This document shows, piece after piece, positions 4,903-35,971 of a stretch of DNA of 48,163 nt (its first letter is position 1; the number at the start of each line of letters is the position of its first letter). Source of the stretch: Desulfobacteraceae bacterium (lineage in GTDB: Bacteria; Desulfobacterota; Desulfobacteria; Desulfobacterales; UBA11574); assembly GCA_030604635.1 (NCBI GenBank), contig JAUVVL010000002.1:1-48163 (forward strand). Reading direction: 5' to 3'. The translations under genes were made by a program, and so were the position numbers. The notes below the pieces were generated by a model. It worked only from the letters and a program-made list of their open reading frames with translations, searched no databases and had not been told where the DNA came from.

Positions 4903-4973
4903 TTGTCATTTGTCATTTGTTATTAGTTATTGGTTATTAATTATTGGTTATTAATTATTGGTTATTAATTATT
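4897..4973. repeat. STRR-like heptamer array, 11 units (AGTCATT/TGTCATT/GGTTATT/AATTATT)
   Basis: Exactly 77 nt (11 x 7). It fills the whole spacer between the stop of 4973..5872 and the start codon of 2887..4902. Confidence 0.9.
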
Positions 4974-9334: not shown

Positions 9335-9700
9335 TCATTGGACTATCGGTTTCTTGCCTATAGATTTAATATAGGCGTTCAGCTTTTTACCGATCGCTTC
9401 TATGTCTTCATTCAGTGAATTGAACTCATCATCATTTAGCAATTTCCTGTTATTTCCCTTAGCAAGCCAAGTTCTTGTCTCATACAGTGAACCCCGTGCA
9501 TAATAACAGAACTGTTTGTTTTCCTTATAAGAGAAACGACCAAAACCCTCACTTAAATTTGCTGCCACTGAATCGGCGGATCTAACTAACTGCTTGCCTA
9601 TTGTGTCCTTAGCGAAATAATTCCATTGAATTACAATTTTCCAAACTTTCTCACCAAGTTCCATTGCGAGTTGATAAACTTGGAGATCTTCGATTTGCAT
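9335..9700 (-). CDS. Four-helix-bundle protein (23S rRNA intervening-sequence protein family), copy 1
   Basis: DLQVYQLAMELGEKVW..KDTIGKQLVRSADSVAANLSEGFGRFSYKENKQFCYYARGSLYET is characteristic of the family. About 85% identical to 10855..11226. Start at internal ATG 9700; the upstream MVISHWSLVIG is heptamer-derived. Confidence 0.8.
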   Translation of the reverse strand: MQIEDLQVYQLAMELGEKVWKIVIQWNYFAKDTIGKQLVRSADSVAANLSEGFGRFSYKENKQFCYYARGSLYETRTWLAKGNNRKLLNDDEFNSLNEDIEAIGKKLNAYIKSIGKKPIVQ

Positions 9701-9829
9701 AATCAACTCCTCACTTCTCAATAACCAATAACCAATGACTAATGACCAATGACTAATGACCACTAACCAGCCACTAACCCCTGTTCAGTACCCCCCCGCC
9801 TCGCAAGCCCGTCCGCCATTGGCTTCGCC

Positions 9830-10834
9830 TCAGGCGAATGCCGGGCGGGCGAGAGCGTTGCGGGCAGGCACTGCCCCCCGATCGGTTATGATTCGCCTGA
9901 ATATCTGATCCCACTCTTCCAGGGAATCACCCGAAAAAGAAACTAATCTCCTTGTACCGCTACCGGCATAGATAATATCCAGCACCCTTTTTTTCTTTAG
10001 GACGTCACTTAAGTTTCTGTTTTCCATTGCACAAGCAACGAGTTCTCCGATGGGAATTTCAAAGGCAACTTTTTGCTCAAAGTCATACCACCAACAAATT
10101 CTTTTATCGGTAAGATACAGGTGACCGGGTCTCCATGTATTGTCTATAATACCCTCGGTCTCCATCAGATACCACATCTTTCCACTGCAAATGACCTGCT
10201 CTCCAGTGGTTAAGAACTTCGCCGCACTCTCTTCAAAAACAGGAAGCGCAGGATCTTCTTCAGGGACAAGGCCCAGTTCATTCATCCTTTTCTCTATGGC
10301 CTTTTTCAATTGAGACACATCTAAAGCACTCAGCCTTGCGACCTTATTATCTCCCAGAAGCAGAGATAACTCGTCCCTCTCCTTTTTTTCAGTAAAATGT
10401 TCCCCTTTCTTGGTCACCAGACCCCGTATCTTTACCAGGGGAGTCTCAAATAAAACCTTCCCAAAATCTTCATGATAGAGAAACAGCCTCTCGCCGCTAA
10501 GAAAAAAGTAACCGTATCTCCAGGCAGTATATATCCCCTCACTTGAGTAGTATGCCCCTAACATCTTGAGAACGATCTTTTCTCCCTGGGCCAAAGAGCT
10601 TTTTTTCTTGCTCCTGTGTTCCCGTTCCCAGGCCCGTATACGCTCATCCCAGGACTGCATAATCCCATATTTCAGCATGGTCTCCATGCCGGCCAGGGCC
10701 GCGCGCAGGTTAACCCCGATCAAAGGAATGCCCGCAACCGAGACGATAATATCGGCATGGATCACCAGGCCCTTGTCCAGGACCCGGTCAAGAAGATCTA
10801 CCAGAGTTGCGTTAGTGCTGCGTTGTGGTTCCAT
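9830..10834 (-). CDS. gvpJ: GvpJ/GvpA-family domain fused to two PH/GRAM-like domains
   Basis: N-terminal TLVDLLDRVLDKGLVIHADIIVSVAGIPLIGVNLRAALAGMETMLKYG is the gas-vesicle shell fold signature. It is followed by two repeats with WRYGYFFLSGERLFLYHE and WRPGHLYLTDKRICWWYD. The last ~16 aa are read from a REP element. Confidence 0.75.
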   Translation of the reverse strand: MEPQRSTNATLVDLLDRVLDKGLVIHADIIVSVAGIPLIGVNLRAALAGMETMLKYGIMQSWDERIRAWEREHRSKKKSSLAQGEKIVLKMLGAYYSSEGIYTAWRYGYFFLSGERLFLYHEDFGKVLFETPLVKIRGLVTKKGEHFTEKKERDELSLLLGDNKVARLSALDVSQLKKAIEKRMNELGLVPEEDPALPVFEESAAKFLTTGEQVICSGKMWYLMETEGIIDNTWRPGHLYLTDKRICWWYDFEQKVAFEIPIGELVACAMENRNLSDVLKKKRVLDIIYAGSGTRRLVSFSGDSLEEWDQIFRRIITDRGAVPARNALARPAFA

Positions 10835-10854: not shown

Positions 10855-11226
10855 TCACTGGTCATTTGTCATTGGTTGCTTTCCTATGGATCTAATGTAT
10901 GCATTCAACATCTTTCCTATCGTCTCAATATCCTGATTCAACGAATCAAATTCATTATTTCTTATCAATTTCCTGTTTTTCCCTTTAGTGAGCCAAGTTT
11001 TGGTCTCATACAATGAACCGCGAGCATAATAACAAAACTGTTTATTTTCTTTATATGAGAAACGACCAAACCCCTCACTTAAATTTGCAGCCACAGAATC
11101 TGCAGATCGAACTAACTGCTTGCCTATTGTGTCCTTAGCGAAATAATTCCACTGAGTTACAATACCCCAAACTTTTTCGCCGAGGGTCATTGCCATTTGA
11201 TAGACTTTCAGATCCTCCAAATTCAT
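10855..11226 (-). CDS. Four-helix-bundle protein (23S rRNA IVS protein family), copy 2
   Basis: Paralog of 9335..9700 (DLKVYQMAMTLGEKVW..FCYYARGSLYETKTWL). Start at ATG 11226. Confidence 0.8.
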   Translation of the reverse strand: MNLEDLKVYQMAMTLGEKVWGIVTQWNYFAKDTIGKQLVRSADSVAANLSEGFGRFSYKENKQFCYYARGSLYETKTWLTKGKNRKLIRNNEFDSLNQDIETIGKMLNAYIRSIGKQPMTNDQ

Positions 11227-11306
11227 GGTCTCCTCCTCATGCCTTCCGTTACCGATGACTAATGACCAATGACTAATGACCAATGACTAATGACCAGTGA
11301 CCACTG

Positions 11307-12255: not shown

Positions 12256-12558
12256 TTATCCATCCCACCTTTCAGGATTAATCATTTTGTCTAACAGCTC
12301 ATCTACGATATTATCCAGACCGTCTCTTACAGATTTAACCGACTCACTTATTCCCTGTTCTTTCTTTATCTCCTCGATCGCTGTGTCCAGATCCATCAGG
12401 GCTCGCCCCAACCTGTCAATCTCTTCTTCGGTAAGACTTCCCCCTTCCATTCTTTTTAGAGCCTGAAGCCTGAGGGCCTCCTTGATGATCTCCACCAGGG
12501 CTATAACTAATCCCAGGACCCCGTGTTTAAGATTTTTCTCGTCAATATCTATTGGCAT
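12256..12558 (-). CDS. gvpK: Gas vesicle protein GvpK
   Basis: GVLGLVIALVEIIKEALRLQALKRMEGGSLTEEEIDRLGRALMDLDTAIEEI matches the conserved GvpK core. The start overlaps the upstream gene by 10 nt. Confidence 0.85.
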   Translation of the reverse strand: MPIDIDEKNLKHGVLGLVIALVEIIKEALRLQALKRMEGGSLTEEEIDRLGRALMDLDTAIEEIKKEQGISESVKSVRDGLDNIVDELLDKMINPERWDG

Positions 12559-12956
12559 TTTCTAAAGTGTCCATTGGTCGTTGTATATATACGGCCTGAT
12601 GCTTTATATCCACAACTGAAGCAACCGCTATTATCGAATTCATCTCTTATTACTTGCCTTCCACAATGAGGGCAATGTATTCTATATAAACCGGTATTTC
12701 CCTTTGTGCCGTGACTACCCACCTGTCCTTGCTGATGATGCACGGATTGAGTCCCTGCCTGCTCCAGATCTTCTTCTGTTCCCTGCCAACCGCATAAATA
12801 GCAGCCCTTGTTCATCAACTCCTTTTTGACTACTCGCCTCCCGCAAGCAGGACACATCACCCAATAAGGGCTTCCATCTTTTCTTTCCGCTTCGTCTTTG
12901 ACTTCGTTTAAAACTTTTTGTACAATAGGGCCAAAAACCATATCTCCTGCTTTCAC
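12549..12956 (-). CDS. Double zinc-ribbon protein
   Basis: Two copies of CPxCGRxV-x8-GCxxCGW/Y (CPACGRRVVKKELMNKGCYLCGW; CPHCGRQVIRDEFDNSGCFSCGY). The same module ends the adjacent GvpJ-like protein. Confidence 0.6.
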   Translation of the reverse strand: MKAGDMVFGPIVQKVLNEVKDEAERKDGSPYWVMCPACGRRVVKKELMNKGCYLCGWQGTEEDLEQAGTQSVHHQQGQVGSHGTKGNTGLYRIHCPHCGRQVIRDEFDNSGCFSCGYKASGRIYTTTNGHFRKCQ

Positions 12957-13031: not shown

Positions 13032-13391
13032 CTAATGACCACTGACAACTTCTTGAGCCTTTGCCTTGGCACTGATCCACCCGCACCAGTGGCAGCCGGT
13101 GGTTATAAGATCCTCCACGGGAACCCTCTTATCACATTGAGGACAGTTTTCCTTGGCGATCAGAGCATCTTTCCAGGCTGCTGTCTCATAATTGGTTCCT
13201 GAAGGAAATTCCAAACCGTATTTGGCTGCTGTCTCAAAGGATGACAGGGCAGCCCTGATCTTGATGCCCAGCAGTTCGACTCCGGCCACAGATACAGTAA
13301 TGTCTGCGTTAATCACAAGTCCCTTGTCCAGTATCCTGTCTATTACGTCAGCTAAACCGCCACCACCATTTCGAGATGGTTCTATAGTCAT
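13032..13391 (-). CDS. gvpJ: GvpJ/GvpM/GvpA-family protein with C-terminal zinc ribbon
   Basis: GLADVIDRILDKGLVINADITVSVAGVELLGIKIRAALSSFETAAKYGL followed by CPQCDKRVPVEDLITTGCHWCGW. Confidence 0.85.
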   Translation of the reverse strand: MTIEPSRNGGGGLADVIDRILDKGLVINADITVSVAGVELLGIKIRAALSSFETAAKYGLEFPSGTNYETAAWKDALIAKENCPQCDKRVPVEDLITTGCHWCGWISAKAKAQEVVSGH

Positions 13392-13412: not shown

Positions 13413-14324
13413 TTATCCTATCCTGAAAATTCCTTCACAATAGTCATTCCCATCGGGAAGAGTTGAATCAAATTCAAAACGGGCTCCTGGATTAATTGCC
13501 CGTGCTACGTTATTGATATACTCGATGCAATAAAAAGAGCAGCCTACCCATCCAGGCTCCTGATCCAGCCCCATACTCTTAATCACCGAATACTGCCAGC
13601 AGGCGTTCACCCTAATAGTTGATTCTACGTCACCTTTATCTACAACCTTAACCTTTGGACTCCCTATAATGGCAGACATTGCTCCATAAGTGTTAGCCAT
13701 GGCAGCGGCATCATTTCCTTTAATGCCCAATTTCTCCTTTGATGACAGATATTTTGCCCCGATTGAATCGAGGGCCAATTTCTTTGCCTTTAAAAGGCCT
13801 TTCCAGGTTCCTCCGTGCCTTTTAATCAAATCCCTCTCCATCTGATAAGTAGCCCCAATATACTTGACTAAGTACATGATCCTGACCCAATCTTTGCTTG
13901 CCAGTTCGAACTTTTCCCTGGTAGGAAGCTTTTTTATAACCTCTTCAATTGTATCAAAAAGAGCATCCTTCATTTCAGGCATCAATTCTTCAAATATTTC
14001 CCGTGCCCGGTGTATACATTCCACCGCCTTTTCGTGCTCTCCTCCGGCCTGGTGGATCTCACCGAGAGTTACATAGGGAAGTGTTTTGTCCTGCGCTTTA
14101 CTGATCGCTTTTTTCGCCCGCTCCATAGCCAGGTCAAGGTGACCGGTGTTCATATATGAATCTGCTAAATTATTGCAAATAAGAGCGGCGTTATCTGAGC
14201 CCCCATCTAAGGCTTGCCGGTAATGCTCGATTGAACCTGCATAATCTCCTTTCGAAGCACACCTGTATCCCATTTTCATGGAATGGCTCCAGCCTATTTT
14301 GTCCAGCCCATATTTAGCCATCAC
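13413..14324 (-). CDS. TPR-repeat protein with Cys-containing C-terminal domain (possibly ATC-hydrolase-like fold)
   Basis: N-terminal TPR-like helices (YRCASKGDYAGSIEHYRQALD..; GEHEKAVECIHRAREIFE). C-terminal NACWQYSVIKSMGL..CSFYCIEY..INPGARFEFDSTLPDGNDYCEGIFRI resembles that family from memory only. Confidence 0.45.
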   Translation of the reverse strand: MMAKYGLDKIGWSHSMKMGYRCASKGDYAGSIEHYRQALDGGSDNAALICNNLADSYMNTGHLDLAMERAKKAISKAQDKTLPYVTLGEIHQAGGEHEKAVECIHRAREIFEELMPEMKDALFDTIEEVIKKLPTREKFELASKDWVRIMYLVKYIGATYQMERDLIKRHGGTWKGLLKAKKLALDSIGAKYLSSKEKLGIKGNDAAAMANTYGAMSAIIGSPKVKVVDKGDVESTIRVNACWQYSVIKSMGLDQEPGWVGCSFYCIEYINNVARAINPGARFEFDSTLPDGNDYCEGIFRIG

Positions 14325-14333
14325 AGCACCTCG

Positions 14334-15713
14334 TCAAGCAAACTGGTAGAGCGCTTCTTTAAACTGAAACTCGTTAATGGCTCTTTCATATAGGTCATTG
14401 AGCTCTGCATAGGTGATATTTTCTAATTCTATAACACCTCTTTCAAGTTGATATGAGTATTGACTCCAATCGGAAGTTACTAACATGTCATTCATCTCAC
14501 AGTATTCGTATAATGGGGTTCCGGGGAAAGGGGTTACTATTGAAAATCCTGCGCTGTCCAGACCGTGATTTAGTGCCAGATCCTTGGCAAGGTTTATTGT
14601 ATCCTCAACTGTTTCAACAGTCTCTGTAGGGTAGCCCATCATGAAATATCCATAAGAAGATATGCCCGTTTTTGAAGTTATCTTTACAGTTTCCCGCACC
14701 TGATCGATGGTGAAACCTTTGTTGCAGAGGTCAAGTATCCTCTGGTTTCCGAATTCAATACCATAGAAAATTACAATACAGTTGGCCTTTTTCATCTCTT
14801 CAAGTAGCTCCTCTGACACCAAACTTACCCTCCCATCGCAGGCCCAGGCAAGATCATCAAGACCTCTCTCTGCCATACCCCGGCACAGGTCAATGGTCCA
14901 CTTTTTGTTTACAATGAGAAGGTCATCAAGGAATCTGATATATCTTACGCCAAACTCTTTATAAATCTGCTCCAGTTCATCCAGAACATTCTCCACGGAT
15001 CGCCTTCTGTGTTTTCTTCCCCATATACGAGGAGCAGCGCAGAATGCACAATGATAGGGGCATCCTCTTGTTGATAAGACAGGGCTGAATGTTTGGCCTT
15101 CAGTCCATAACCCGCGGTAGGCGGGATTGTGTAGTAAATTACGGGCAGGAAAAGCGAATGTGTCAAGGCTCTTAACAAAGGGCCGATCCGGATTAACGAT
15201 TATATCATTATCACGTTTGAAGGTTATACCTTTAATTGCGGTAAGATCGCCTCCCTTTGTTAGACAATTTATCAAATCCAGGCTGGTTATCTCACCTTCA
15301 CCCCTAACGCAAAAATCCACCGAATCATTATTAATAACAGTTTTATGCTCAAAATGTATATGAGGCCCTCCCAGAATTACTTTTATATCCGGACTGATTT
15401 TCTTTACCTTTTCTGCAAGATAAAGAGCGCTGTTTATGCGCGCTGTAATAGCTGTTATGCCAACGAATTGAGGAGCCTCTTTTTCAATCTTTTTTATGAC
15501 TTCATCATGGGAAAGGCTTCTTGTCCTGGCTTCGATCAAGCTAACATCTATGCTATTTTCCAACAACGTTGCGGCAATATATGCAAGACCAAGAGGGGGA
15601 TATACTTCGTGCATTTTAGTTGCATTAGTGGCCCCATGGCTTTTTGCCATGTCTGAAACCCGATCAGGCGGGTCGACCAAAACACATTTCACCCCTTGAT
15701 CCTTTCCAGTCAT
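14334..15713 (-). CDS. B12-binding-domain radical SAM enzyme, paralog 1
   Basis: N-terminal Rossmann-like cobalamin-binding region (PPLGLAYIAATL..GGPHIHF) and CxxxCxxC cluster motif STRGCPYHCAFCAAP. About half the residues are identical to 29507..30895. Confidence 0.85.
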   Translation of the reverse strand: MTGKDQGVKCVLVDPPDRVSDMAKSHGATNATKMHEVYPPLGLAYIAATLLENSIDVSLIEARTRSLSHDEVIKKIEKEAPQFVGITAITARINSALYLAEKVKKISPDIKVILGGPHIHFEHKTVINNDSVDFCVRGEGEITSLDLINCLTKGGDLTAIKGITFKRDNDIIVNPDRPFVKSLDTFAFPARNLLHNPAYRGLWTEGQTFSPVLSTRGCPYHCAFCAAPRIWGRKHRRRSVENVLDELEQIYKEFGVRYIRFLDDLLIVNKKWTIDLCRGMAERGLDDLAWACDGRVSLVSEELLEEMKKANCIVIFYGIEFGNQRILDLCNKGFTIDQVRETVKITSKTGISSYGYFMMGYPTETVETVEDTINLAKDLALNHGLDSAGFSIVTPFPGTPLYEYCEMNDMLVTSDWSQYSYQLERGVIELENITYAELNDLYERAINEFQFKEALYQFA

Positions 15714-15797
15714 CTCTTCCCCTTTGACCTGATTTCAGCATTGTAAATGTTTAACGACCTCTACAGCCTTCGTCTATTCCTGGTGCTGTTTTGGCTT

Positions 15798-16592
15798 CTA
15801 ATCCGGAACATATTGTACTTTATTCCTGCAATGTTTACATTCCATAACCCTTCCATCAGTTTTGAGTACTATATCTCCATCACAATATGGACATTTTTCT
15901 TTGCTTGTCGGTCCCGGTGGGGGTTTTGTGGACTTGCTTTTATGTGGCTTAAGCGGAGCCGGAGTATAGGGCTTAATTGGCACAGGAGTGTATGGCTTGA
16001 GTGGTGCTGGACTGTAGTCCTTAAGCGGAACTGGACTGTAGTCCTTAAGCGGAACCGGACTGTAGTCCTTTAACGGCGCTGGTTTGTACGGCTTAATAGG
16101 CACAGGAGTGTATGGCTTGAGTGGTGCTGGACTGTAGTCCTTAAGCGGAACTGGGCTGTAGTCCTTTAATGGCGCTGGCTTGTACGGCTTAATTGGCACA
16201 GGAGTATATGCCTTCAATGGTGCCGGCTTATATGGCTTGAGCGGAGCTGGGGTGTAGGACTTGAGTGGAACCGGGGCATAGTCCTTCAATTGCACTGGTT
16301 TGTATGGTTTAACAACTGGTGTGTACGGCTTCAACGGTGCTGGTTCGTATGGCTTAACCGGTACTGGACTGTAGTCCTTTAATGGCGCTGGTTTGTACGG
16401 CTTAACTGGCACAGGAGTATATGCCTTCAATGGTGCCGGCTTATATGGCTTGAGCGGCACAGGAGTATAGGCCTTCAGTCGCTTAGGGCTATAGGAAGAC
16501 CTGGATTTGGATCCTGGATGGTCTTTGCCACACTTTATAAATCTTTCCCGCCACCTTTTGTCCTTACTTAATGCCTCAATTCTTTCCTGCAT
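15798..16592 (-). CDS. Proline-rich tandem-repeat protein (about 22 x P-[AV]-P-[LIV]-K-x-Y-x) with C-terminal zinc ribbon
   Basis: PAPLKPYK/PVPLKDYS/PVPIKPYK units span aa ~34-212. C-terminal CPYCDGDIVLKTDGRVMECKHCRNK. Confidence 0.7.
   Translation of the reverse strand: MQERIEALSKDKRWRERFIKCGKDHPGSKSRSSYSPKRLKAYTPVPLKPYKPAPLKAYTPVPVKPYKPAPLKDYSPVPVKPYEPAPLKPYTPVVKPYKPVQLKDYAPVPLKSYTPAPLKPYKPAPLKAYTPVPIKPYKPAPLKDYSPVPLKDYSPAPLKPYTPVPIKPYKPAPLKDYSPVPLKDYSPVPLKDYSPAPLKPYTPVPIKPYTPAPLKPHKSKSTKPPPGPTSKEKCPYCDGDIVLKTDGRVMECKHCRNKVQYVPD
15957..16493. repeat. 24-bp-period coding tandem repeat (P-x-P-L-K-x-Y-x units)
   Basis: Reiterated cttaagcggaactggactgtagtc-type units with higher-order near-identical blocks (e.g. 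15990-16070 versus 16110-16160). Confidence 0.85.
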
Positions 16593-16634: not shown

Positions 16635-16934
16635 TCATGAATGAATCCATCTCCTGTATTTTTCATCCGGTGATTCCGAATACTTCCCCTCGGAAGATAA
16701 CCGTCCTGTTTTGCCTAATTCTCTTTGCCCTGTATGTGTAAGTTCAACTTTTCCTGATCTGTATCCACCTTTGCCGGCTGCAAATACAAGAACAAACCCC
16801 TTCCTGCCTAATTGCTCTAGCACATTCTTTAAACTGTCAATTTCTGCGCCCATTTTACGAGCTAATTTGGATATAGTAATATATAAGCCTTCATCAAGGA
16901 TTAGGCTTAGAATTGTTTTTTCATAATGAGTCAC
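16635..16934 (-). CDS. Small winged-helix (MarR/TrmB-like) protein
   Basis: ILSLILDEGLYITISKLARKMGAEIDSLKNVLEQLGRKGFVLV is a helix-turn-helix plus wing pattern. Confidence 0.5.
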   Translation of the reverse strand: MTHYEKTILSLILDEGLYITISKLARKMGAEIDSLKNVLEQLGRKGFVLVFAAGKGGYRSGKVELTHTGQRELGKTGRLSSEGKYSESPDEKYRRWIHS

Positions 16935-17338: not shown

Positions 17339-17782
17339 CTATTTCCGAGCGACTCTGGTAACCCCTTTTCCTCCGCATGTAACACAGGGCAAAATGGAGT
17401 TTATTCGGGCCTTTCCACTTCCATCACAATCCTTGCAAGTCTCTCTGGATCCCGGGACCGTAACCCTGCCTTTTCCTCCACATACACTGCATGAAAGCCA
17501 TTCCTGACCATAATGCCGGCCAGCTCCCTCACAATAGGCACATTCTATGGAGGGCTCTTTGACGGTGACGAAACCCTTTCCCGCACATGTAGTACATGTA
17601 ATCCTCTGGCCAGGATGTTCACCAGTTCCTTCACAAAAGGGACAATCGAATGCGGGCTCAGAAGCCTTTATCATCCCCTTTCCTCCGCATACCTGACATT
17701 TAGATAGTGGAGACAGAATCCCGAAAGGATCCAATCCCTCGCCATTACAGTAAGCACATTTCTTTTCAGTAAACATGGCCAT
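17339..17782 (-). CDS. Stand-alone DnaJ-type zinc-finger protein, 8 CxxCxGxG repeats
   Basis: CAYCNGEG, CQVCGGKG, CPFCEGTG, CTTCAGKG, CAYCEGAG, CSVCGGKG, CKDCDGSG, CVTCGGKG. No J-domain. Confidence 0.85.
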   Translation of the reverse strand: MAMFTEKKCAYCNGEGLDPFGILSPLSKCQVCGGKGMIKASEPAFDCPFCEGTGEHPGQRITCTTCAGKGFVTVKEPSIECAYCEGAGRHYGQEWLSCSVCGGKGRVTVPGSRETCKDCDGSGKARINSILPCVTCGGKGVTRVARK

Positions 17783-17866: not shown

Positions 17867-18601
17867 TTATCTGGCCACCTGGATGCTGTAAAAATCTCCC
17901 CTTTTTTCATAAGTTAATAATGAATTAGTTTTCAGTTCCTCAAGGCATTGAGCCAATTCGTCTCTGGCCTCGATAATTCTCGTTTTAGAAATTCCAGGAG
18001 ACTTTAGAAGATCACTTTCCCTGATTCGAAGTGTTTTCTGTTTCCCCTGATCTGCAATGGAAGAATAGATCTGAAATGCAGAGGGAGAAAGGTTGTCGCG
18101 GGTCTGGAAAAGCAATTTGTCCATCTTTTCTTGCAGAGCAAGATTGGAATTAATATATTTTATAATGGCAAAGTGCTTCGGGTTTTTTTCTTCCACTTCA
18201 ATTTCATTAGCAATCTCTTCGTATTTGAGCTTAAAGGTCTTTTGCAAGTTTACTCTATTTCCATTCTGCGAGAGTTTGGTTTCAGTATCTCTTATTTTTC
18301 CATTAAGGCTCTCTATGGTCATGAACGTATTATTAATATCTTGAATTTTCGGTATTAGTTCTTCGACAAATTGATTTATTCCCCGGTTAACTTCGCTCTC
18401 CTTTTGCTTTACTTCTCTGAAGAGAGGAGCAATTTCTGTGTCGATAATTTTCAGTTTTGCCTGCCATTCCGCTTCTGTGAAAGCCTCAGTCAGGTCTTCC
18501 AACTCCTGTTTGCTTCCTTCCTTTTTTGTTTCAAGTTTGGAAATTTCCTCTTTTTTTGCTTTGATCTTTTCCTGCAATTCTTCTATCTTTTTGTTCGCCA
18601 T
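17867..18601 (-). CDS. Coiled-coil protein with C-terminal wHTH-like domain
   Basis: Start set at ATG 18601 (MANKKIEELQEKIKAKKEE..) with a GGAGAGGGAA RBS. Long K/E heptad region. C-terminal SKTRIIEARDELAQCLEELKTNSLLTYEKRGDFYSI. Confidence 0.5.
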   Translation of the reverse strand: MANKKIEELQEKIKAKKEEISKLETKKEGSKQELEDLTEAFTEAEWQAKLKIIDTEIAPLFREVKQKESEVNRGINQFVEELIPKIQDINNTFMTIESLNGKIRDTETKLSQNGNRVNLQKTFKLKYEEIANEIEVEEKNPKHFAIIKYINSNLALQEKMDKLLFQTRDNLSPSAFQIYSSIADQGKQKTLRIRESDLLKSPGISKTRIIEARDELAQCLEELKTNSLLTYEKRGDFYSIQVAR

Positions 18602-18621
18602 TTCCCTCTCCTTCCCCAAAA

Positions 18622-18921
18622 TCAATCTTTTGTTTCCTTTTCTGCCTCTTCTTCCGGTCTTACATGGACTACCCCTTTGCCATGGCAGTTCCAGCAAAAG
18701 AGCTTGCTTCTGTAATAAACGCCGGTGCCCTCACAAGCGGGGCAGGTCTCATAAGGTTTTATGACATAAACGGTCTTATGGCCGTTGCAAACCGGGCAGT
18801 TTGAAAGAGGAGATAAGAGTTTAAATGGGTCTTTACCCTTCCCCTTGCAAAATACACAGGGAATTTTCTCCATCTCAGGCAAGATCGTTTCCGCGGACTT
18901 TTTTCTTCGCCTCTTAACCAT
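18622..18921 (-). CDS. Stand-alone DnaJ-type zinc-finger protein, 4 repeats
   Basis: CVFCKGKG, CPVCNGHK, CPACEGTG, CWNCHGKG. Confidence 0.8.
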   Translation of the reverse strand: MVKRRRKKSAETILPEMEKIPCVFCKGKGKDPFKLLSPLSNCPVCNGHKTVYVIKPYETCPACEGTGVYYRSKLFCWNCHGKGVVHVRPEEEAEKETKD

Positions 18922-18959: not shown

Positions 18960-19367
18960 TTAAGCATAAGTCTCGATAGTTTTTTTCCATTCCTTAAGGT
19001 TCCTGGCAAAAAGAAAAAATACTCTTTTAAGGCTATCACTCTGTTGCATGAGTTGCAGTTGCTCCACCTTCTTTTTGGGAACCCAATCCCTTAGTACAAT
19101 TGACGTGTCTTTTAGAGAATTCAATGATATCTCAAAAAGCTTGTTTGCCCCTTGCAGGAATATAAGGCGCTCTTTGGTCAGATATAGGTAACCGGGTTTC
19201 CAGTTGGCCCTGGTCACCATGCCATCCTGATAACTTGCCTGCCCGGACATGATGACATCTTCTCCTTCGATATCAGAAGGCATCTCCATCTCCCGGTGTA
19301 TCTCCAGGCCGCTCCTTAACCTCAATTGCGTCTGAGGATTAAAACGGCCGTACCCTGTCTTCTTCAT
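18960..19367 (-). CDS. PH/GRAM-like domain protein
   Basis: NWKPGYLYLTKERLIFLQG..RVFFLFARNLKEWKKTIE. Paralogous to the N-terminus of 4973..5872 and to the repeats of 9830..10834. Confidence 0.55.
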   Translation of the reverse strand: MKKTGYGRFNPQTQLRLRSGLEIHREMEMPSDIEGEDVIMSGQASYQDGMVTRANWKPGYLYLTKERLIFLQGANKLFEISLNSLKDTSIVLRDWVPKKKVEQLQLMQQSDSLKRVFFLFARNLKEWKKTIETYA

Positions 19368-19457: not shown

Positions 19458-19829
19458 TTACTTTAAATCCTTGATTTTACGTTTAACCTCAACTTTCCTT
19501 TCCCCAAAATTAAGAATAAGGCCTACAGGTTTTCCTGTAGCAACAAGGCAATTAACCACTTGTACTTCATGTGCTTTGATAATTCGTCTTACTGACTTCA
19601 GTTCCAAAATAATCGTATCATTAACTATAATATCAGATACAAATTCACCTACAATTTCATTTTCATAATAGACTGTAATAGCTTTTTGTGATTCTGCATT
19701 AAGTCCTGCTTTACGCAGTTCTATAAGCATACATTTCTCATAAACACTCTCAAGAAAACCAAATCCCATTCTATTGTAAACACGATAAGCACAGCCGATA
19801 ATTGTTTCCGTCACGTCTTTATATTCCAT
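19458..19829 (-). CDS. GxxExxY protein (PD-(D/E)XK-fold family often found with 23S rRNA IVS elements)
   Basis: TETIIGCAYRVYNRMGFGFLESVYEKCMLIELRKAGL..ILELKSV carries the diagnostic G-F-L-E-S-V-Y motif. Confidence 0.85.
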   Translation of the reverse strand: MEYKDVTETIIGCAYRVYNRMGFGFLESVYEKCMLIELRKAGLNAESQKAITVYYENEIVGEFVSDIIVNDTIILELKSVRRIIKAHEVQVVNCLVATGKPVGLILNFGERKVEVKRKIKDLK

Positions 19830-19926: not shown

Positions 19927-21951
19927 TTATCCGTATACCATCTCCGACAACCTTGTCAGATCCTCCACCCCTACGATCTGATTTGGAAAAAGGGGGACCT
20001 GGACGATATTATATTCCGGATTCTTTTGGGACAACTTTTGAATATATCTCTGCTCACCCCCCCTCTTGGAAGAACAAAAAGCACAACCTGATGGAGGTGT
20101 GACCATGTTGACGAATATATTGCTGCACGGAACACCCAATCTCTTTACCGATGCAATAAGCCGGGTGGTTTCTTCTACGCCCATGGCCTCAGGGATGGTC
20201 ACGGTAACCAGTTGACTGGCCTCCGGATTTGTAAGCATGTCATGTATTTTATTGACCAGTTGGGTTGATTTCAGAATCCTGTTTCCCAGTTCCTTCAGAT
20301 TGGTCAGGGCTATCTGGACCTGGTACTTGACCAGGCTGCGATAAGCACGGCTCAACCAGTCTCTTACCAGGTTGGGAAACTCAAGGAGAACCAGGAGATG
20401 GCCGGTGGGGGCGGTGTCCAGGATATACCAGTCAAACTTCTTCTCATTAATAAATTCGGTGATCTTTTCCAGCGCGAAGACCTCGTTCATGCCCGGCGGC
20501 ACGGTACGGGCAAACACGGCCATCACATTGCGGTCAAAACGCAGTTCCGTGATAGTCTCTCGCATGCTCTCCCAGGTATCAAAGGCATCCCGGATAATTG
20601 CCCGGTAATCTTCGATAAAATCATGGAGAAGATGCCCCGAATCGATCTCCATGGCAAAAAGATTGGGCATTGGGGATTGAAGATTGAAGATTGAAGATTG
20701 AAGATTTTGGTGTATCGGCGTAAGCTTATCTCCTATTTCCATTGCAAAGCTGTCCGCCAGAGAATGGGCAGGATCGACCGAATAGATCAGCACCTTTTGA
20801 TCAGGATATGTTTTGGCCAGATGGACAGCCATGGCAGCAGCCATTGAGGTCTTGCCCACCCCGCCCTTGCCCCCGAACATGACAAATTTCACATCCGGGT
20901 CAATCGAGGGACGACTTGTTGCGGGTACCTGAGAAACACCAGACTCGTTTGTATTAGCCTCCACCTCTATAGTTTGAATTTTGTCCATGAGAACATCCGC
21001 ATATTTTCCCAGGCTACTTATCCCCTGAACCTCATAAGGGAAAAGGGGCGTCTTGATCAGGTTGTAACCTTCAAACGCCTTTTCAATCTCCCTTATAGAT
21101 TCCGATTGATCCGCAATCTTGGAAGCACAAAACGGGCAGGTCCCATTGCTCCCCCTTACCCGGTTGATTACAATGTTGTTTACCTGGATCTGTTTATCTT
21201 TCAAAGCCCTGAGCAAATCTCCCGTCTCTTCGATGGCCATTACCTCGGGGATAAGCACCGGCACAAACTCGGTCTGTTCTCGATGGGTAAGCATTTCCTT
21301 GACGGACTTGAAGTCTGCCCGCATCTTTTCCACCATCTGATCCACGCGATCCCCCTCGTGATACTTGCTCCCCGACCTATAGAGACGAGGATGGATCTTA
21401 TATTTCAGGAGGGACTGATCCACCACATCCATCCACTCATCCATCATTTGGGGCATATCCAGGAGACGGAGGGTATGCCCGGTGGGAGCAGTGTCCAGCA
21501 CGATGATATCCGCTTCCTGAGGTTGATACCAGGTATATTTATATTTGTCGGCAACATGTAAGAATATCATCATATCATCCATGCCCGGAAGAGAAAAAGA
21601 GAGGAATTCCTTGACGTTGATCTGCCCGTAAAATCCGGCCCGTTTGATGATCTCGTTGATTTCCTTTTGATGCTTCTTCTTGAAAACTTCAAGCAGCGGG
21701 ACAGGCTCAATTTCCAGGGCCTCAAGGTTTGGTATCCCGTCAACACTCACCTTGTGTGGGCCAATGTGCCTCCCCAGGCTATCCCCCACGGAATGGGCCG
21801 GGTCACTGGAGATAAGCAGTATCTTTTTCGACGGGTTAAGTTTGGCCAGGCAGAGTGCCGAGGCCGCAGCAGAAGTAGTTTTTCCCGTGCCTCCTTTACC
21901 GCCAAAGATGACAAGTTTCAAATTCTCATTACTTAAAAAGCTGGGCAGCAT
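19927..21951 (-). CDS. Internally duplicated Get3/TRC40/ArsA-family ATPase, copy 2
   Basis: GGKGGTGKTT and GGKGGVGKTS P-loops, DPAHSV/DPAHSL, DTAPTGHT/L x2, CxxC motifs CPFCASKI and CAFCSSKR. ATG 21951 preferred over GTG 21960. Confidence 0.9.
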   Translation of the reverse strand: MLPSFLSNENLKLVIFGGKGGTGKTTSAAASALCLAKLNPSKKILLISSDPAHSVGDSLGRHIGPHKVSVDGIPNLEALEIEPVPLLEVFKKKHQKEINEIIKRAGFYGQINVKEFLSFSLPGMDDMMIFLHVADKYKYTWYQPQEADIIVLDTAPTGHTLRLLDMPQMMDEWMDVVDQSLLKYKIHPRLYRSGSKYHEGDRVDQMVEKMRADFKSVKEMLTHREQTEFVPVLIPEVMAIEETGDLLRALKDKQIQVNNIVINRVRGSNGTCPFCASKIADQSESIREIEKAFEGYNLIKTPLFPYEVQGISSLGKYADVLMDKIQTIEVEANTNESGVSQVPATSRPSIDPDVKFVMFGGKGGVGKTSMAAAMAVHLAKTYPDQKVLIYSVDPAHSLADSFAMEIGDKLTPIHQNLQSSIFNLQSPMPNLFAMEIDSGHLLHDFIEDYRAIIRDAFDTWESMRETITELRFDRNVMAVFARTVPPGMNEVFALEKITEFINEKKFDWYILDTAPTGHLLVLLEFPNLVRDWLSRAYRSLVKYQVQIALTNLKELGNRILKSTQLVNKIHDMLTNPEASQLVTVTIPEAMGVEETTRLIASVKRLGVPCSNIFVNMVTPPSGCAFCSSKRGGEQRYIQKLSQKNPEYNIVQVPLFPNQIVGVEDLTRLSEMVYG
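20675..20702. repeat. Heptamer array (GATTGAA x4) inside Get3-like copy 2, encoding QNLQSSIFNL
   Basis: Same position and same peptide (TPIHQNLQSSIFNL) as in copy 1 (3630..3657). Confidence 0.9.
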
Positions 21952-22008
21952 TGCTATCACCTATTCTACTATCACACGATAGTGTCCGTTGTTTGTTGCT
22001 GGCAATAG

Positions 22009-28314: not shown

Positions 28315-29256
28315 TCACTGGACCTTATGCTTTTCCAATGCCTTCTTTCCTTTGCCAGCCAGCAGGATCCTTCCGTTGAGCAGCATGTCTAAAAAATCCT
28401 TCTTAGCCATTGCTCCGGTAATCTTCTGTACCTGATCTACAGGAATACGAGACCTGGCACTAAGATCGGCGATGGTCGATTCTCCTTCTTCCACAAGGCC
28501 CAGCAAAAGCACCTGTTGGGAGGTCACTTTTTCAAGCTCAACCGCTTCGTCTTTGGCGAAAAGCGTCTCACATTCCGGCGTAAGCACATAAATACCCCGT
28601 GCCACCTTTTCGAGATAGCCTTTTTTGATCATGGATTCGCAGACAAAGGCCACATAGTCGGAAGTCAAACCCAGTCTTCTTGCAATCTGGGTCTTGCCGG
28701 CCTCTTTCATGTCGTAAACCACTCTTCCAATATCGCCGGCCGTTCCGCTGGGACGGCCAAAAAATTTTTTCGCACCATGTTTCACGTTGACCACCCCCCT
28801 GCCCTTGCACCCACTGCAGTAAAGGTTCGAGTTATCTAATTCGCGACCCCGGCCCCGGCACTGAGGACACGGTTCTATAGGCTCCTCCACCGCTATTACG
28901 CCGGCTCCCTTACAGGCCAGACAGGTCACATCGCTGCCCACCTTGTCTTCACCAGTACCCCGGCAAAAACCACAGACAATCGCTGTTCCTGTCTTGATAT
29001 GAACCTCTCCTTTGCCTTTACAAACAGGGCAGACCATCGCTCCCTTCCGGCTTCCGGTACCTGAACAAAAACCGCATTCCTGCGAGTCCCCCCTCAATAT
29101 CGTCTTTTCGGGCAGCCTTTGCCCACCTCTGGCCCTGCCTGGCCCTGCCTTTACAGGGCTCCATATGAGCCCTTCCTGCTGACCTGAACCAGCCTCCCTG
29201 TATCTCAGTCTATTTGTTGCTGTGCCCGATTTATTTGCTGTCTGCCAGTCTCCCAT
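28315..29256 (-). CDS. DnaJ-type zinc-finger (6 repeats) fused to two wHTH domains
   Basis: CGFCSGTG, CPVCKGKG, CGFCRGTG, CLACKGAG, CPQCRGRG, CSGCKGRG. These are followed by KTQIARRLGLTSDYVAFVCESMIKKGYLEK and a second wHTH, STIADLSARSRIPVDQVQKITGAMAKKDFL. ATG 29256 has a GGAGG RBS; the upstream part of the track ORF lies in a palindromic repeat. Confidence 0.8.
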   Translation of the reverse strand: MGDWQTANKSGTATNRLRYREAGSGQQEGLIWSPVKAGPGRARGGQRLPEKTILRGDSQECGFCSGTGSRKGAMVCPVCKGKGEVHIKTGTAIVCGFCRGTGEDKVGSDVTCLACKGAGVIAVEEPIEPCPQCRGRGRELDNSNLYCSGCKGRGVVNVKHGAKKFFGRPSGTAGDIGRVVYDMKEAGKTQIARRLGLTSDYVAFVCESMIKKGYLEKVARGIYVLTPECETLFAKDEAVELEKVTSQQVLLLGLVEEGESTIADLSARSRIPVDQVQKITGAMAKKDFLDMLLNGRILLAGKGKKALEKHKVQ

Positions 29257-29326
29257 TCCAGTTCCTCCCTCTAAATTAGCCAAAAGTAAAAATGGAAATT
29301 CCTGTACCAACAAGTTATTATTAATT

Positions 29327-29402
29327 CTTAGCCACAGACACACACGGACGAACAGAGACTTTCATTATCTTGTCTGTGCCTGTCTGTGTGGGTCTGTGGC
29401 TG
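29327..29402. repeat. Imperfect palindrome built of CAGACAC-type heptamers
   Basis: agccacagacacacacggacgaacagagac ..loop.. gtctgtgcctgtctgtgtgggtctgtggct. Confidence 0.6.
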
Positions 29403-31505: not shown

Positions 31506-31510
31506 GGCAA

Positions 31511-35885: not shown

Positions 35886-35968
35886 ATTCTTCAATATGCA
35901 ATCTTCAATTGTTTCGGTCTTCAATCTTCAATCTTCACTCTTCAATTGTCTTGGTCTTCACTCTTCAA
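35886..35968. repeat. STRR-like CTTCAAT heptamer block
   Basis: ttcttcaatatgcaatcttcaattgtttcggtcttcaatcttcaatcttcactcttcaattgtcttggtcttcactcttcaatcttcaat. Confidence 0.85.
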
Positions 35969-35971
35969 TCT

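What the first reader, a model, noticed from the sequence alone, without database searches (positions are those of the whole stretch)
13413..16592. Radical SAM enzyme next to a 22-fold P-x-P-L-K-x-Y repeat protein: a candidate enzyme-substrate pair
Seen: in transcription order come a Pro-rich repeat protein with a C-terminal zinc ribbon (15798..16592), a B12-binding radical SAM enzyme (14334..15713), and a TPR protein with a Cys-rich C-terminal domain (13413..14324). These are followed directly by the gvpJ-like gene. Every 8-aa unit presents an invariant K-x-Y. Established: B12-dependent radical SAM enzymes methylate or otherwise modify unactivated carbons, and other radical SAM classes cross-link aromatic residues to residues two positions away in repeat-containing precursors. 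Inference: the repeat protein may be iteratively modified on Lys, Tyr or Pro to form a rigid structural component, perhaps an external brace for the vesicle.
Basis: inference. Interest (0 to 1): 0.7.

Follow-up and report, generated by a model that had tools for sequence, protein, structure and literature searches.

The report
Radical-SAM module inside gas-vesicle cluster
A gas-vesicle (buoyancy organelle) gene cluster from an anaerobic sediment bacterium carries a proline-rich 22-repeat protein beside a vitamin-B12 radical-SAM enzyme and its fixed TPR partner; the trio recurs across several phyla, so gas vesicles in these organisms may need a protein-modifying step nobody has described, but whether the repeat protein is the enzyme's target is still unproven.

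Summary
Window 15798..16592(-) encodes a 264-aa basic protein with 22 units of x-P-[VA]-P-[LIV]-K-x-Y and a C-terminal CxxC…CxxC zinc ribbon. 14334..15713(-) is a B12-binding radical SAM enzyme (rSAM1). 13413..14324(-) is a TPR protein whose C-terminal domain has four invariant Cys. A gvpJ-like gene follows. All sit in a 45-kb gas-vesicle supercluster (gvpA at 44552..44758).

Comparative data partly support the proposed enzyme–substrate pairing. The repeat family occurs only in gvp clusters that also carry rSAM1. It lies directly beside the rSAM1–TPR pair in 13 of 21 loci where both are visible, on either side of the pair. No contig seen in depth has one without the other.

The invariant partner of rSAM1 is the TPR protein, not the repeat protein. 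A paralogous rSAM2 (29507..30895) has no repeat gene beside it. The repeat gene is equally often next to a DnaJ-type zinc-finger gene. The TPR protein's C-terminal domain resembles hydrophobic-ligand-binding folds (Bet3, phenol-sensor, H-NOX). The nearest non-gvp rSAM relatives sit in glycan clusters.

No chemistry is shown. I found no paper linking radical SAM enzymes or this repeat family to gas vesicles.

The parts
15798..16592 (-). rep: 264-aa, 29.7 kDa, pI 9.8 proline/lysine/tyrosine repeat protein with no signal peptide
   Evidence: ORF. No Pfam or NCBIfam family. Composition and pI. Homologues found only in gvp clusters.
15942..16484 (-). Repeat array: 22 units x-P-[VA]-P-[LIV]-K-[PDAS]-Y, partly alternating as a 16-aa super-repeat
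   Evidence: The 16-aa alternation (K/V at position 3) is very regular in orthologues L025, L031, P0122 and P0124.
15828..15893 (-). C-terminal zinc ribbon CPYC-x14-CKHC of rep
   Evidence: C234, C237, C252 and C255 are invariant in alignments A3 and A5.
14334..15713 (-). rSAM1: class-B (B12-binding domain) radical SAM enzyme belonging to a gvp-specific clade
   Evidence: PF02310 plus PF04055. Invariant C218/C222/C225. Orthologues are 62-88% identical across MAGs labelled Desulfobacterales, Thermodesulfovibrionales/Nitrospirota, Planctomycetota, Omnitrophica and others. The clade has 100% bootstrap support.
13413..14324 (-). TPRC: 3-TPR N-terminal domain, helical linker, and a C-terminal alpha/beta domain with 4 invariant Cys; the obligate neighbour of rSAM1
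   Evidence: It directly follows rSAM1 in every rSAM1 locus where the downstream gene is visible. The family has only 99 clusters, all >=48% identical. AF2 mean pLDDT 81. Fold matches Bet3, MopR/PoxR and H-NOX. PF14196 is matched below threshold in 27/41 members.
13032..13391 (-). gvpJ-like gene with its own C-terminal zinc ribbon
   Evidence: PF00741 E 3.7e-17; NF046090 GvpJ 99 bits.
16635..16934 (-). wH99: small winged-helix protein ending in the conserved tail SPDEKYRRWIHS; encoded directly upstream of rep
   Evidence: Homologues lie directly upstream of ArsA-rSAM1-TPRC or of rSAM2 in many loci.
17339..17782 (-). DnaJ-type CXXCXGXG zinc-finger protein, the most frequent other neighbour of rep genes
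   Evidence: PF00684 E 4e-16. A homologue is adjacent to rep in 14 loci.
29507..30895 (-). rSAM2: paralogue of rSAM1 (46% identity), preceded by wH63 and wH106, with no rep or TPRC beside it
   Evidence: The rSAM2 clade has 96% bootstrap support, and rSAM1+rSAM2 (plus one Bathyarchaeota sequence) 87%.
44552..44758 (-). gvpA, the major gas-vesicle shell protein (68 aa); shows that the whole region is a bona fide gvp cluster
   Evidence: 81% identical to an Anabaena GvpA sequence that I entered from memory. gvpN, F/L, G, K and O are also present.

Best explanation
The three genes form an accessory maturation module of an expanded gas-vesicle cluster found in anaerobic sediment lineages.

Shown:
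- rSAM1 and TPRC are an obligate gene pair.
- rep is a conserved, cytoplasmic, basic protein made of 8-residue P-x-P-L-K-x-Y units capped by a zinc ribbon.
- All three are restricted to this cluster type, and here they are probably co-transcribed with gvpJ/K/L.

Inferred:
- rSAM1 and TPRC work as a complex. The 3-TPR domain, whose concave-face residues N51, N52, Y57 and N59 are invariant, holds an extended client polypeptide.
- The cobalamin radical-SAM domain then modifies unactivated carbons on that client, most plausibly by C-methylation, unit after unit.
- rep is the leading single candidate client. Once modified, it would act as a stiff, extended (polyproline-II-like) structural or spacer element of the gas-vesicle system, docked through its zinc ribbon.

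The chemistry, the modified residue and the final location on the vesicle are all unverified.
For: - Cluster identity: gvpA, gvpJ-like, K, L/F, G, O, N-like AAA, ArsA and Hsp70 are present.
- rSAM1–TPRC pairing holds in every locus where the gene after rSAM1 can be seen.
- Gene order around rep:
  - rep-rSAM1-TPRC in the window, L001, L002 and L027.
  - rSAM1-TPRC-rep in L025, L026/L040, L029, L031, L033, L034, L035, L037 and L044.
  - rep 2-6 kb away in L005, L006, L008, L045, L046 and L047.
  - rep 13-20 kb away on the same contig in L039/L065 and in Scalindua L018/L009.
- Adjacency on both sides of the pair in different clades argues for selection for proximity.
- The rep family is small and confined to these clusters.
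- P, K and Y stay invariant across phyla and despite synonymous codon turnover.
- The rSAM is not a member of any named equivalog. Among solved structures its second-best sequence relative is QCMT (PDB 9CCB), a B12 radical-SAM enzyme that C-methylates a protein glutamine (PMC12931638; PMC11796369). RiPP C-methyltransferase and ApyD models also hit below threshold.
- Gaps between the genes are tight, and no terminator-like site lies between rep and rSAM1.
Against: - Nothing shows that rep is modified.
- rep is not adjacent to the pair in 8 of 21 loci. Its neighbourhood is shared just as often with a DnaJ-type zinc-finger gene (14 loci).
- rSAM2, a sister paralogue in the same clusters, works without a neighbouring rep or TPRC.
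- The C-terminal domain of TPRC resembles Bet3, the MopR/PoxR phenol-sensor domains and H-NOX. These are hydrophobic small-molecule binders.
- The closest non-gvp relatives of the rSAM lie in glycosyltransferase/methyltransferase clusters. The best NCBIfam matches are BchE and HpnJ, both small-molecule enzymes.
- No RiPP-recognition element, leader peptide or protease is present.
- The rep repeats occur fused to winged-helix domains (P0130, P0132, P0133, L052). That fits a passive linker or spacer equally well.
- rSAM1–TPRC loci L004 (21 kb), L062/63 and L066 (14 kb) show no rep in the part that could be read.
Confidence: 0.35

Rival explanations
1. rSAM1–TPRC modifies a different protein of the cluster, and rep is an unmodified scaffold or spacer. 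Candidate clients are the small winged-helix proteins with the conserved tail motif [ST]P.E[KR][YF].[RK][WY], or a shell protein of the GvpA/GvpJ family. rep would be an extended proline-rich rod that links a zinc-ribbon dock to partner modules.
For: - A wH99/wH106-type gene lies directly upstream of ArsA-rSAM1-TPRC (L005, L006, L007, L045-47, L059) or of rSAM2 (window, L015). Its tail motif is conserved and sometimes duplicated.
- 3-TPR domains of this type typically bind short linear peptides. Foldseek top hits include CTPR390/Hsp90 peptide, CHIP-TPR/Hsp70 tail and Sti1 TPR2B.
- rep repeats are found fused to wHTH domains, which suggests a linker role.
- rSAM2 lacks rep but keeps wHTH neighbours.
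Against: - wHTH genes are also not universally adjacent; they are absent next to rSAM1 in L026, L062 and L064.
- The GvpA of this window is 81% identical to an Anabaena GvpA sequence entered from memory. To my knowledge the Anabaena cluster has no rSAM; this was not tested here.
- rep is adjacent to the pair more often than any other single non-TPRC gene except ArsA.
Confidence: 0.3
2. rSAM1–TPRC acts on, or handles, a hydrophobic small molecule or cofactor rather than a polypeptide. The Bet3/phenol-sensor/H-NOX-like 4-Cys domain of TPRC would carry that ligand, and the TPR domain would only tether the enzyme to the gas-vesicle assembly machinery. This would be analogous to the BchE (B12 rSAM) plus BchJ (V4R-domain carrier) pairing in bacteriochlorophyll synthesis; that analogy is from memory.
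For: - Foldseek of the C-terminal domain gives Bet3/TRAPPC3 (palmitate-binding), MopR/PoxR/DmpR phenol sensors and H-NOX, with E about 1e-3 and TM 0.4-0.53.
- PF14196 is matched below threshold in 27/41 members.
- The best NCBIfam hits of rSAM1 are BchE (213 bits) and HpnJ (191 bits).
- Sister clades sit in glycan-biosynthesis clusters.
Against: - To my knowledge, gas vesicles are built only of protein with no known small-molecule component; this was not tested here.
- The fold matches are weak.
- The four Cys may simply bind structural zinc, as I recall for MopR.
- Nothing else in the 48-kb window looks like a small-molecule pathway.
Confidence: 0.2
3. The adjacency is inherited gene order with no direct functional link. 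rep, rSAM1 and TPRC are independent accessory genes of a cluster that is shuffled locally.
For: - Only about five to six distinct gene-order classes exist, and they track the rSAM1 phylogeny, so the 13 adjacent loci represent only about two independent arrangements.
- Everything in this cluster co-occurs with everything else.
Against: - Two different adjacent arrangements exist, upstream and downstream of the pair.
- Adjacency in a cluster of about 45 genes is expected in about 5% of random orders.
- rep is specific to rSAM-bearing clusters.
Confidence: 0.1

Closest known systems
QCMT/MgmA (PDB 9CCB), the B12-dependent radical SAM glutamine C-methyltransferase of methyl-coenzyme M reductase; more broadly, peptide-modifying class-B rSAM methyltransferases such as PoyC and Mmp10
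   Same: Same domain layout: an N-terminal B12-binding domain followed by a radical-SAM core. It acts post-translationally on a protein. It is the second-best solved relative by sequence, E 6e-23 (identity of 9CCB from PMC12931638 and PMC11796369).
   Different: Only distant similarity: TIGR04014 scores 134 bits against a cut-off of 360. The genomic context is different. rSAM1 has a dedicated TPR/4-Cys partner, and no methylation has been shown.
BchE (anaerobic Mg-protoporphyrin monomethyl ester cyclase) and HpnJ
   Same: These are the highest-scoring named families for rSAM1, at 213 and 191 bits. BchE works in a pathway that also contains a V4R-domain protein, BchJ (from memory). This echoes the Bet3/phenol-sensor-like domain of TPRC.
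   Different: Scores are less than half the equivalog cut-offs (481 and 578). There are no tetrapyrrole or hopanoid genes in the window. The clade is specific to gvp clusters.
GvpC, the gas-vesicle strengthening protein of cyanobacteria
   Same: A repeat protein encoded in a gvp cluster. In GvpC the repeat length matches the GvpA lattice: the 33-aa helix spans 49.5 Å, about four GvpA at ~12.1-12.7 Å spacing (PMC9994262). An 8-aa unit of rep in polyproline-II geometry (3.1 Å per residue, textbook value) would span ~24.8 Å, about two GvpA. The 16-aa super-repeat would span ~49.6 Å, about four GvpA or one 48.8 Å rib pitch.
   Different: No sequence similarity. The units are 8 aa and proline-rich, not 33-aa amphipathic helices. 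rep has a zinc ribbon at its C-terminus. No binding to vesicles is shown. Another repeat protein (42012..43079, 10 x 18 aa) lies two genes downstream of gvpA, near the position gvpC holds in cyanobacteria.
Radical-SAM/SPASM three-residue cyclophane-forming enzymes (triceptide maturases) acting on repeat-containing RiPP precursors
   Different: Those enzymes carry a SPASM auxiliary-cluster domain and no B12 domain. rSAM1 has a B12 domain, no SPASM hit and only one Cys after residue 312. rep has no leader peptide, is a 30-kDa protein with a folded zinc ribbon, and no protease or exporter is encoded nearby.
Pro/Lys/Tyr-rich structural repeat proteins that are modified after translation (mussel foot protein-1 decapeptide AKPSYPPTYK; plant proline-rich cell-wall proteins PPVYK); comparison from memory
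   Same: Same residue palette (P, K, Y, V) in short tandem units. These are extended structural proteins whose Pro, Tyr and Lys are hydroxylated or cross-linked.
   Different: Those proteins are eukaryotic and secreted, and are modified by oxygen-dependent hydroxylases or peroxidases. rep is cytoplasmic and bacterial, occurs in anaerobes, and has a radical-SAM neighbour.

Membership tests
Class B (cobalamin-binding domain) radical SAM enzymes | N-terminal B12-binding domain (PF02310) | tested here: met
   E 1.4e-23, residues 32-144.
Class B (cobalamin-binding domain) radical SAM enzymes | Radical SAM core with a CxxxCxxC motif | tested here: met
   PF04055 E 9e-24. C218, C222 and C225 are invariant in 19 homologues.
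Class B (cobalamin-binding domain) radical SAM enzymes | Actual cobalamin binding and SAM cleavage | not testable with these tools
   Needs purified protein.
BchE / HpnJ / ApyD / QCMT equivalogs (NCBIfam) | Score at or above the curated equivalog cut-off | tested here: not met
   BchE 213 vs 481; HpnJ 191 vs 578; ApyD 182 vs 750; TIGR04014 134 vs 360.
rSAM-SPASM cyclophane (triceptide) maturases | C-terminal SPASM/twitch auxiliary Fe-S domain | tested here: not met
   No SPASM Pfam hit. Only one Cys (C405) in the C-terminal 147 residues.
RiPP precursor–maturase pair | Leader peptide plus a RiPP-recognition element (PqqD-like), with a protease or exporter nearby | tested here: not met
   No PqqD/RRE, peptidase or ABC exporter hits among any of the window ORFs scanned. 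rep is a 264-aa protein with a folded zinc ribbon.
Gas-vesicle gene cluster | gvpA together with gvpF/L, G, J, K, N and O | tested here: met
   gvpA at 44552..44758. PF00741, PF05121, PF06386, PF05120 and PF05800 are hit, plus AAA_5 GvpN-like proteins.
GvpC | 33-residue amphipathic helical repeats; Pfam GvpC | tested here: not met
   rep has no Pfam hit at all. Its repeat is 8 aa with two or three Pro per unit.
TPR proteins | Tandem 34-aa helix-turn-helix repeats | tested here: met
   TPR_2 E 9e-12 and others. The AF2 model shows helices 14-114 as a 3-TPR unit, and Foldseek TM 0.8-0.9 to CTPR3.
ATC_hydrolase (PF14196) and the Bet3/phenol-sensor/H-NOX-like fold | Pfam gathering score; structural match | tested here: inconclusive
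   21 bits vs cut-off 28.1; 27/41 family members hit below threshold, best E 5e-6. Foldseek E about 1e-3, TM 0.4-0.53 to Bet3, MopR/PoxR and H-NOX.

The most novel reading that the evidence does not exclude
rep is a polyproline-II 'molecular ruler or brace' for the gas-vesicle wall. Its 8-residue unit (~25 Å) would match two GvpA subunits. Its 16-residue super-repeat (~50 Å) would match four subunits or one rib pitch. It would be iteratively C-methylated or cross-linked on Lys, Tyr or Pro by the rSAM1–TPRC complex to stiffen it. This would be the first post-translationally matured gas-vesicle component, a non-helical functional analogue of GvpC, and the first B12 radical-SAM enzyme shown to act processively on a large structural repeat protein.
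Probability: 0.12. Interest if true: 0.85.

Novelty: new variant of a known kind. Interest (0 to 1): 0.6.

Why it matters
To my knowledge, gas vesicles are treated as self-assembling shells of unmodified Gvp proteins. They are also being engineered as acoustic reporters.

This analysis found a widespread cluster variant carrying two dedicated B12 radical-SAM enzymes, a fixed TPR/4-Cys partner and an unannotated Pro-Lys-Tyr repeat protein. It occurs in MAGs labelled Desulfobacterales, Nitrospirota/Thermodesulfovibrionales, Planctomycetota (including anammox Scalindua and Brocadiaceae), Omnitrophica and others. This implies an anaerobic maturation step, or an extra wall component, that is not in current models.

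If rep is the client, it gives a three-gene system that can be tested directly for iterative radical modification of a structural protein. It may also offer a new handle on vesicle stiffness or width. If rep is not the client, the rSAM1–TPRC pair is still an orphan enzyme system with a defined cellular context.

Tried and rejected
1. L039, a 20-kb stretch with ArsA-rep and no rSAM or TPRC, looked like a counter-example. L065 is the same contig (overlap verified) and carries Hsp70-…-rSAM1-TPRC 13 kb away. Rejected.
2. P0081 looked like an rSAM1–TPRC fusion. It is rSAM1 residues 1-245 joined to TPRC residues 75-176, which is a deletion or assembly chimera and not a Rosetta-stone fusion.
3. The profile search of the rep family against 1.84 billion representatives gave only a handful of true members with the zinc ribbon. 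The long high-scoring hits that I inspected (five of the eight sequences retrieved: P0232, P0233, P0234, P0235 and P0236) are unrelated proteins that merely have 8-residue periodic repeats (TPLQDITD, YRPTDLQT, VSPVSVKD). No fusion of rep to an rSAM or TPR was seen.
4. The search for homologous proteins with rep saturated its candidate list on low-complexity words (13 hits). It did not list the window protein itself, so family-size comparisons are not possible.
5. The idea that the TPR is an Hsp70 EEVD 'carboxylate clamp' was tested. The cluster's Hsp70 ends in …LLEKM, with no EEVD.
6. Foldseek with full-length TPRC returned only TPR proteins. The C-terminal domain had to be modelled separately.
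7. Literature searches found nothing relevant for gas vesicle + radical SAM, or for gas vesicle + proline-rich + GvpC + repeat. ArsA in gvp clusters is already known (PMC2963123). The Scalindua rubra paper mentions 11 gvp genes only (PMC5486813).
8. I could not obtain whole-contig views for L004, L062 or L066, so absence of rep there is undetermined.

Full report
**What is there**

The three ORFs lie on the minus strand exactly as described.

The repeat protein, 15798..16592 (264 aa, 29.7 kDa, pI 9.8):
- It has a short charged N-terminus and no signal peptide.
- It has 21 perfect 8-residue units plus one 7-residue unit of x-P-[VA]-P-[LIV]-K-[PDAS]-Y.
- It has a short basic linker and a C-terminal zinc ribbon CPYC-x14-CKHC.
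- Tandem Repeats Finder sees the DNA array at 15946..16477 with periods 24/48/96/120.
- Units are only 68% identical on average at the DNA level, and the invariant Pro, Leu and Tyr use several synonymous codons. The periodicity is therefore maintained by selection on the protein.
- No other ORF in the window contains the motif, and no Pfam or NCBIfam model matches.

The other genes:
- 14334..15713 is a B12-binding-domain radical SAM enzyme, here called rSAM1. PF02310 gives E 1.4e-23 and PF04055 gives E 9e-24, and the CxxxCxxC motif is invariant.
- 13413..14324, here called TPRC, has three TPR motifs and a C-terminal domain with four invariant cysteines.
- A gvpJ-like gene with its own zinc ribbon follows.
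- Intergenic gaps are 84, 9 and 21 nt. No terminator-like site lies between rep and rSAM1; the only minus-strand terminator-like hit in the block falls inside the TPRC ORF, and such sites are no more frequent here than in shuffled sequence.

**Context**

The whole window is one minus-strand gas-vesicle supercluster. It contains:
- gvpA (44552..44758, 81% identical to an Anabaena GvpA sequence that I entered from memory);
- gvpK, gvpL/F (three copies, one fused to a DnaJ J-domain), gvpG, gvpO, and two GvpN-like AAA_5 ATPases;
- a CDC48-type AAA ATPase, two two-domain ArsA ATPases, Hsp70 and Hsp20-like proteins;
- many DnaJ-type CXXCXGXG zinc-finger proteins and many small winged-helix proteins.

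ArsA homologues in gvp clusters have been described before (PMC2963123).

There is also a second B12 radical SAM gene, rSAM2 (29507..30895), 46% identical to rSAM1. It is preceded by two small winged-helix genes, as rSAM1 is, but has no repeat-protein or TPR gene next to it.

**Relatives**

rSAM1 has orthologues of 62-88% identity in MAGs labelled Desulfobacterales/Desulfobacteraceae, Thermodesulfovibrionales, Nitrospirota, Planctomycetota, Ca. Scalindua, Omnitrophica and others.

In every locus where the gene after rSAM1 can be seen, that gene is a TPRC orthologue. The TPRC family is small: 99 clusters, all at least 48% identical and about 300 aa long. So the obligate partner of the enzyme is TPRC.

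A neighbour-joining tree gives:
- the rSAM1 clade at 100% bootstrap;
- the rSAM2 clade at 96%;
- the two together, plus one Bathyarchaeota sequence, at 87%.

The next relatives are 40-47% identical. They sit in clusters of glycosyltransferases, sugar-nucleotide enzymes, class-I methyltransferases and further rSAMs in Methanoperedens, PVC, Thermodesulfobacteriota and Clostridia MAGs.

No named NCBIfam equivalog is reached: BchE 213/481 bits, HpnJ 191/578, ApyD 182/750, QCMT family 134/360. Among solved structures the best sequence relatives are AprD4 (6fd2, E 2e-23) and 9CCB (E 6e-23). 9CCB is QCMT, the B12 radical-SAM glutamine C-methyltransferase that modifies methyl-coenzyme M reductase (PMC12931638, PMC11796369).

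**The repeat protein family**

Homologues keep the same design. They have a variable N-terminus, about 8 to more than 20 units of P-x-P-[LIV]-K-x-Y (often a strict 16-residue alternation …TPKPLKDYTPVPLKPY…), and the same zinc ribbon.

A rep-centred scan of metagenome contigs, combined with the rSAM-centred genome scan, gave the following:
- rep-rSAM1-TPRC: the window, L001, L002, L027.
- rSAM1-TPRC-rep: L025, L026/L040, L029, L031, L033, L034, L035, L037, L044.
- rep 2-6 kb from ArsA-rSAM1-TPRC: L005, L006, L008, L045, L046, L047.
- rep 13 kb from the pair: contig Ga0180009_10000719. L039 at first looked rSAM-free, but L065 is the same contig and carries the pair.
- rep about 20 kb from the pair: the Scalindua rubra contig (L018/L009).

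Thus 13 of 21 loci that show both have them directly adjacent, in two different orders. These arrangements track the rSAM1 phylogeny, so they amount to only about five or six independent gene orders, two of which are adjacent.

Every informative locus that carries rep also carries genes of this same gvp cluster type. The exhaustive profile search found only a handful of true family members; the long high-scoring hits that I inspected are unrelated proteins with 8-residue periodic repeats.

Loci with rSAM1–TPRC but no rep in view (L003, L004, L007, L010, L059, L062/63, L066) are all truncated views of longer clusters. They are uninformative rather than contradictory.

Points against a privileged link:
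- rep is flanked by a DnaJ-type zinc-finger gene in 14 loci.
- rep is near rSAM2 rather than rSAM1 in L018, L032 and L041.
- The repeats occur fused to winged-helix domains (P0130, P0132, P0133, L052). That is what one would expect of a spacer or linker.

**The TPR partner**

AlphaFold2 with a 38-sequence alignment gives mean pLDDT 81. The model has a 3-TPR unit (residues ~14-114), a helical linker, and a C-terminal alpha/beta domain.

Foldseek with the whole model returns only TPR proteins. The best local superpositions (TM 0.8-0.9) are on three-repeat peptide-binding TPR modules. The invariant residues N51, N52, Y57 and N59 lie in the second TPR.

The C-terminal domain modelled alone (pLDDT 80.7) matches Bet3/TRAPPC3, the MopR/PoxR/DmpR phenol-sensor domains and H-NOX, at E about 1e-3 and TM 0.4-0.53. 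This is a fold class that binds hydrophobic ligands. As I recall, MopR holds a Cys-ligated zinc. PF14196 is hit below threshold by 27 of 41 family members.

This supports two readings. TPRC may be an adaptor that brings a polypeptide to rSAM1. Or it may be a carrier of a hydrophobic ligand or cofactor that is tethered by its TPR.

**Alternative client noticed**

The ~100-aa winged-helix proteins encoded just upstream of the rSAMs carry a conserved tail motif [ST]P.E[KR][YF].[RK][WY]. It occurs in one or two copies, for example SPDEKYRRWIHS and HEKYQRWMIS in the window. Their genes sit directly upstream of ArsA-rSAM1-TPRC or of rSAM2 in many loci. Such a short linear motif is a typical TPR ligand.

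**Mechanism and likelihood**

Shown:
- a bona fide gvp cluster;
- a gvp-specific pair of B12 rSAM paralogues;
- an obligate rSAM1–TPRC pair;
- a conserved repeat protein restricted to these clusters and often adjacent to the pair.

Inferred: rSAM1–TPRC is a maturation complex, and rep is its best single candidate client. I give this about 0.35. The alternatives are another cluster protein as client with rep as an unmodified scaffold (~0.3), a small-molecule or cofactor role (~0.2), and no direct link (~0.1).

Those enzymes are SPASM-type, and rSAM1 has no SPASM domain. Among class-B enzymes, C-methylation of unactivated carbons in peptides and proteins is the commonest known chemistry (PMC12931638).

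**Geometry (speculative)**

Published cryo-EM gives a 48.8 Å rib pitch and ~12.1-12.7 Å spacing between GvpA subunits. One 33-residue GvpC helix (49.5 Å) spans four GvpA (PMC9994262).

In polyproline-II geometry (3.1 Å per residue, textbook value), one rep unit would span ~24.8 Å, about two GvpA. The 16-residue super-repeat would span ~49.6 Å, about four GvpA or one rib pitch.

This fits a lattice-matched brace or ruler but is untested. Another repeat protein (42012..43079, ten 18-aa units EVADLISEFKAEGPERAR plus a winged-helix-like end) lies two genes downstream of gvpA, near the position gvpC holds in cyanobacteria.

**Novelty**

Full-text searches found no paper connecting radical SAM enzymes or a proline-rich repeat protein with gas vesicles. 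The Scalindua rubra genome paper notes only '11 gas vesicle synthesis proteins' (PMC5486813).

I classify this as a new variant of a known kind: a gas-vesicle cluster with an added radical-SAM maturation module and an unannotated structural repeat protein. It is worth an experiment because the three-gene co-expression test is simple and decisive.

Noticed in passing
window 29507..30895 (-), with 30928..31248 and 31323..31514 upstream and 28315..29343 downstream: Second B12 radical SAM gene (rSAM2, 46% identical to rSAM1). It is preceded by two small winged-helix genes and followed by a DnaJ-zinc-finger/MarR-like protein. In other loci rSAM2 is flanked by a GvpF-like gene and a coiled-coil protein homologous to window 17867..18697. 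It forms its own clade (96% bootstrap).
   Followed up: partly
window 16635..16934 (-) and 30928..31248 (-); L005, L006, L007, L025, L026, L039, L045-47: Small winged-helix proteins share a conserved C-terminal short linear motif [ST]P.E[KR][YF].[RK][WY], sometimes duplicated. Their genes sit directly upstream of ArsA-rSAM1-TPRC or of rSAM2. They are a possible TPR ligand or alternative rSAM client.
   Followed up: partly
window 42012..43079 (-): Acidic protein with ten near-identical 18-aa repeats (EVADLISEFKAEGPERAR; DNA period 54, 89% matches) and a winged-helix-like C-terminus. It is encoded two genes downstream of gvpA, near the position gvpC holds in cyanobacteria. Pfam gives only spurious 'Nebulin repeat' hits.
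   Followed up: no
window 13032..13391, 12549..12956, 9830..10834 (-): Zinc ribbons of the type CPxC-x13-CxxCG[WY] are appended to the GvpJ-like protein and to the 334-aa GvpA-domain protein. They occur twice in a stand-alone 135-aa protein. rep has a related ribbon. This may be a shared docking module of this cluster type.
   Followed up: no
window 9335..9763 and 10855..11283 (-); 19458..19829 (-): Two '23S rRNA intervening sequence protein' (PF05635) genes and a PD-(D/E)XK_3 gene are interspersed in the gvp cluster. A homologous IVP gene is also inside the cluster in L062/L063. 14-nt tandem repeats lie at 4915..4973 and 11251..11301, the latter overlapping the start of the second IVP ORF.
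   Followed up: no
window 35888..35976 and 43429..43538: Intergenic tandem arrays built on the heptamer CTTCAAT (ATTGAAG on the coding strand) lie upstream of the GvpF-DnaJ fusion gene and upstream of the gene at 43158..43439. They may be regulatory repeats. A sigma-54 activator is encoded at 45175..46635.
   Followed up: no
window 18960..19367 (-), 9830..10834 (-); L004 12735..13652: A recurring motif W[KR]PG[YH][LF]YLT[NK][EK]RL[IF] (GRAM/bacterial-PH-like; Pfam GRAM 'faint' on homologues) appears in a 135-aa protein and in the C-terminal part of the long GvpA-domain protein.
   Followed up: no
P0130, P0132, P0133; L052 843..1745: In other metagenomes the P-x-P-L-K-x-Y repeats are fused to one to four winged-helix domains, either N- or C-terminal, with or without the zinc ribbon. 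This suggests the repeats serve as a spacer between binding modules.
   Followed up: partly
L016, L017, L019, L021, L014: The nearest non-gvp relatives of the rSAM (40-47% identity) lie in clusters with two to four B12 rSAM genes, glycosyltransferases, sugar-nucleotide enzymes and class-I methyltransferases. The MAGs are Methanoperedens, PVC, Thermodesulfobacteriota and Clostridia. This is an uncharacterised glycan-modifying rSAM group.
   Followed up: no
window 35972..36994 (-), 2887..4902 and 19927..21960 (-), 5907..7670 (-), 37138..39264 (-): The cluster has unusually rich chaperone and ATPase content: a GvpF/L–DnaJ J-domain fusion, two two-domain ArsA/Get3-like ATPases, an Hsp70 lacking the usual C-terminal tail, and a CDC48-type double AAA ATPase.
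   Followed up: no
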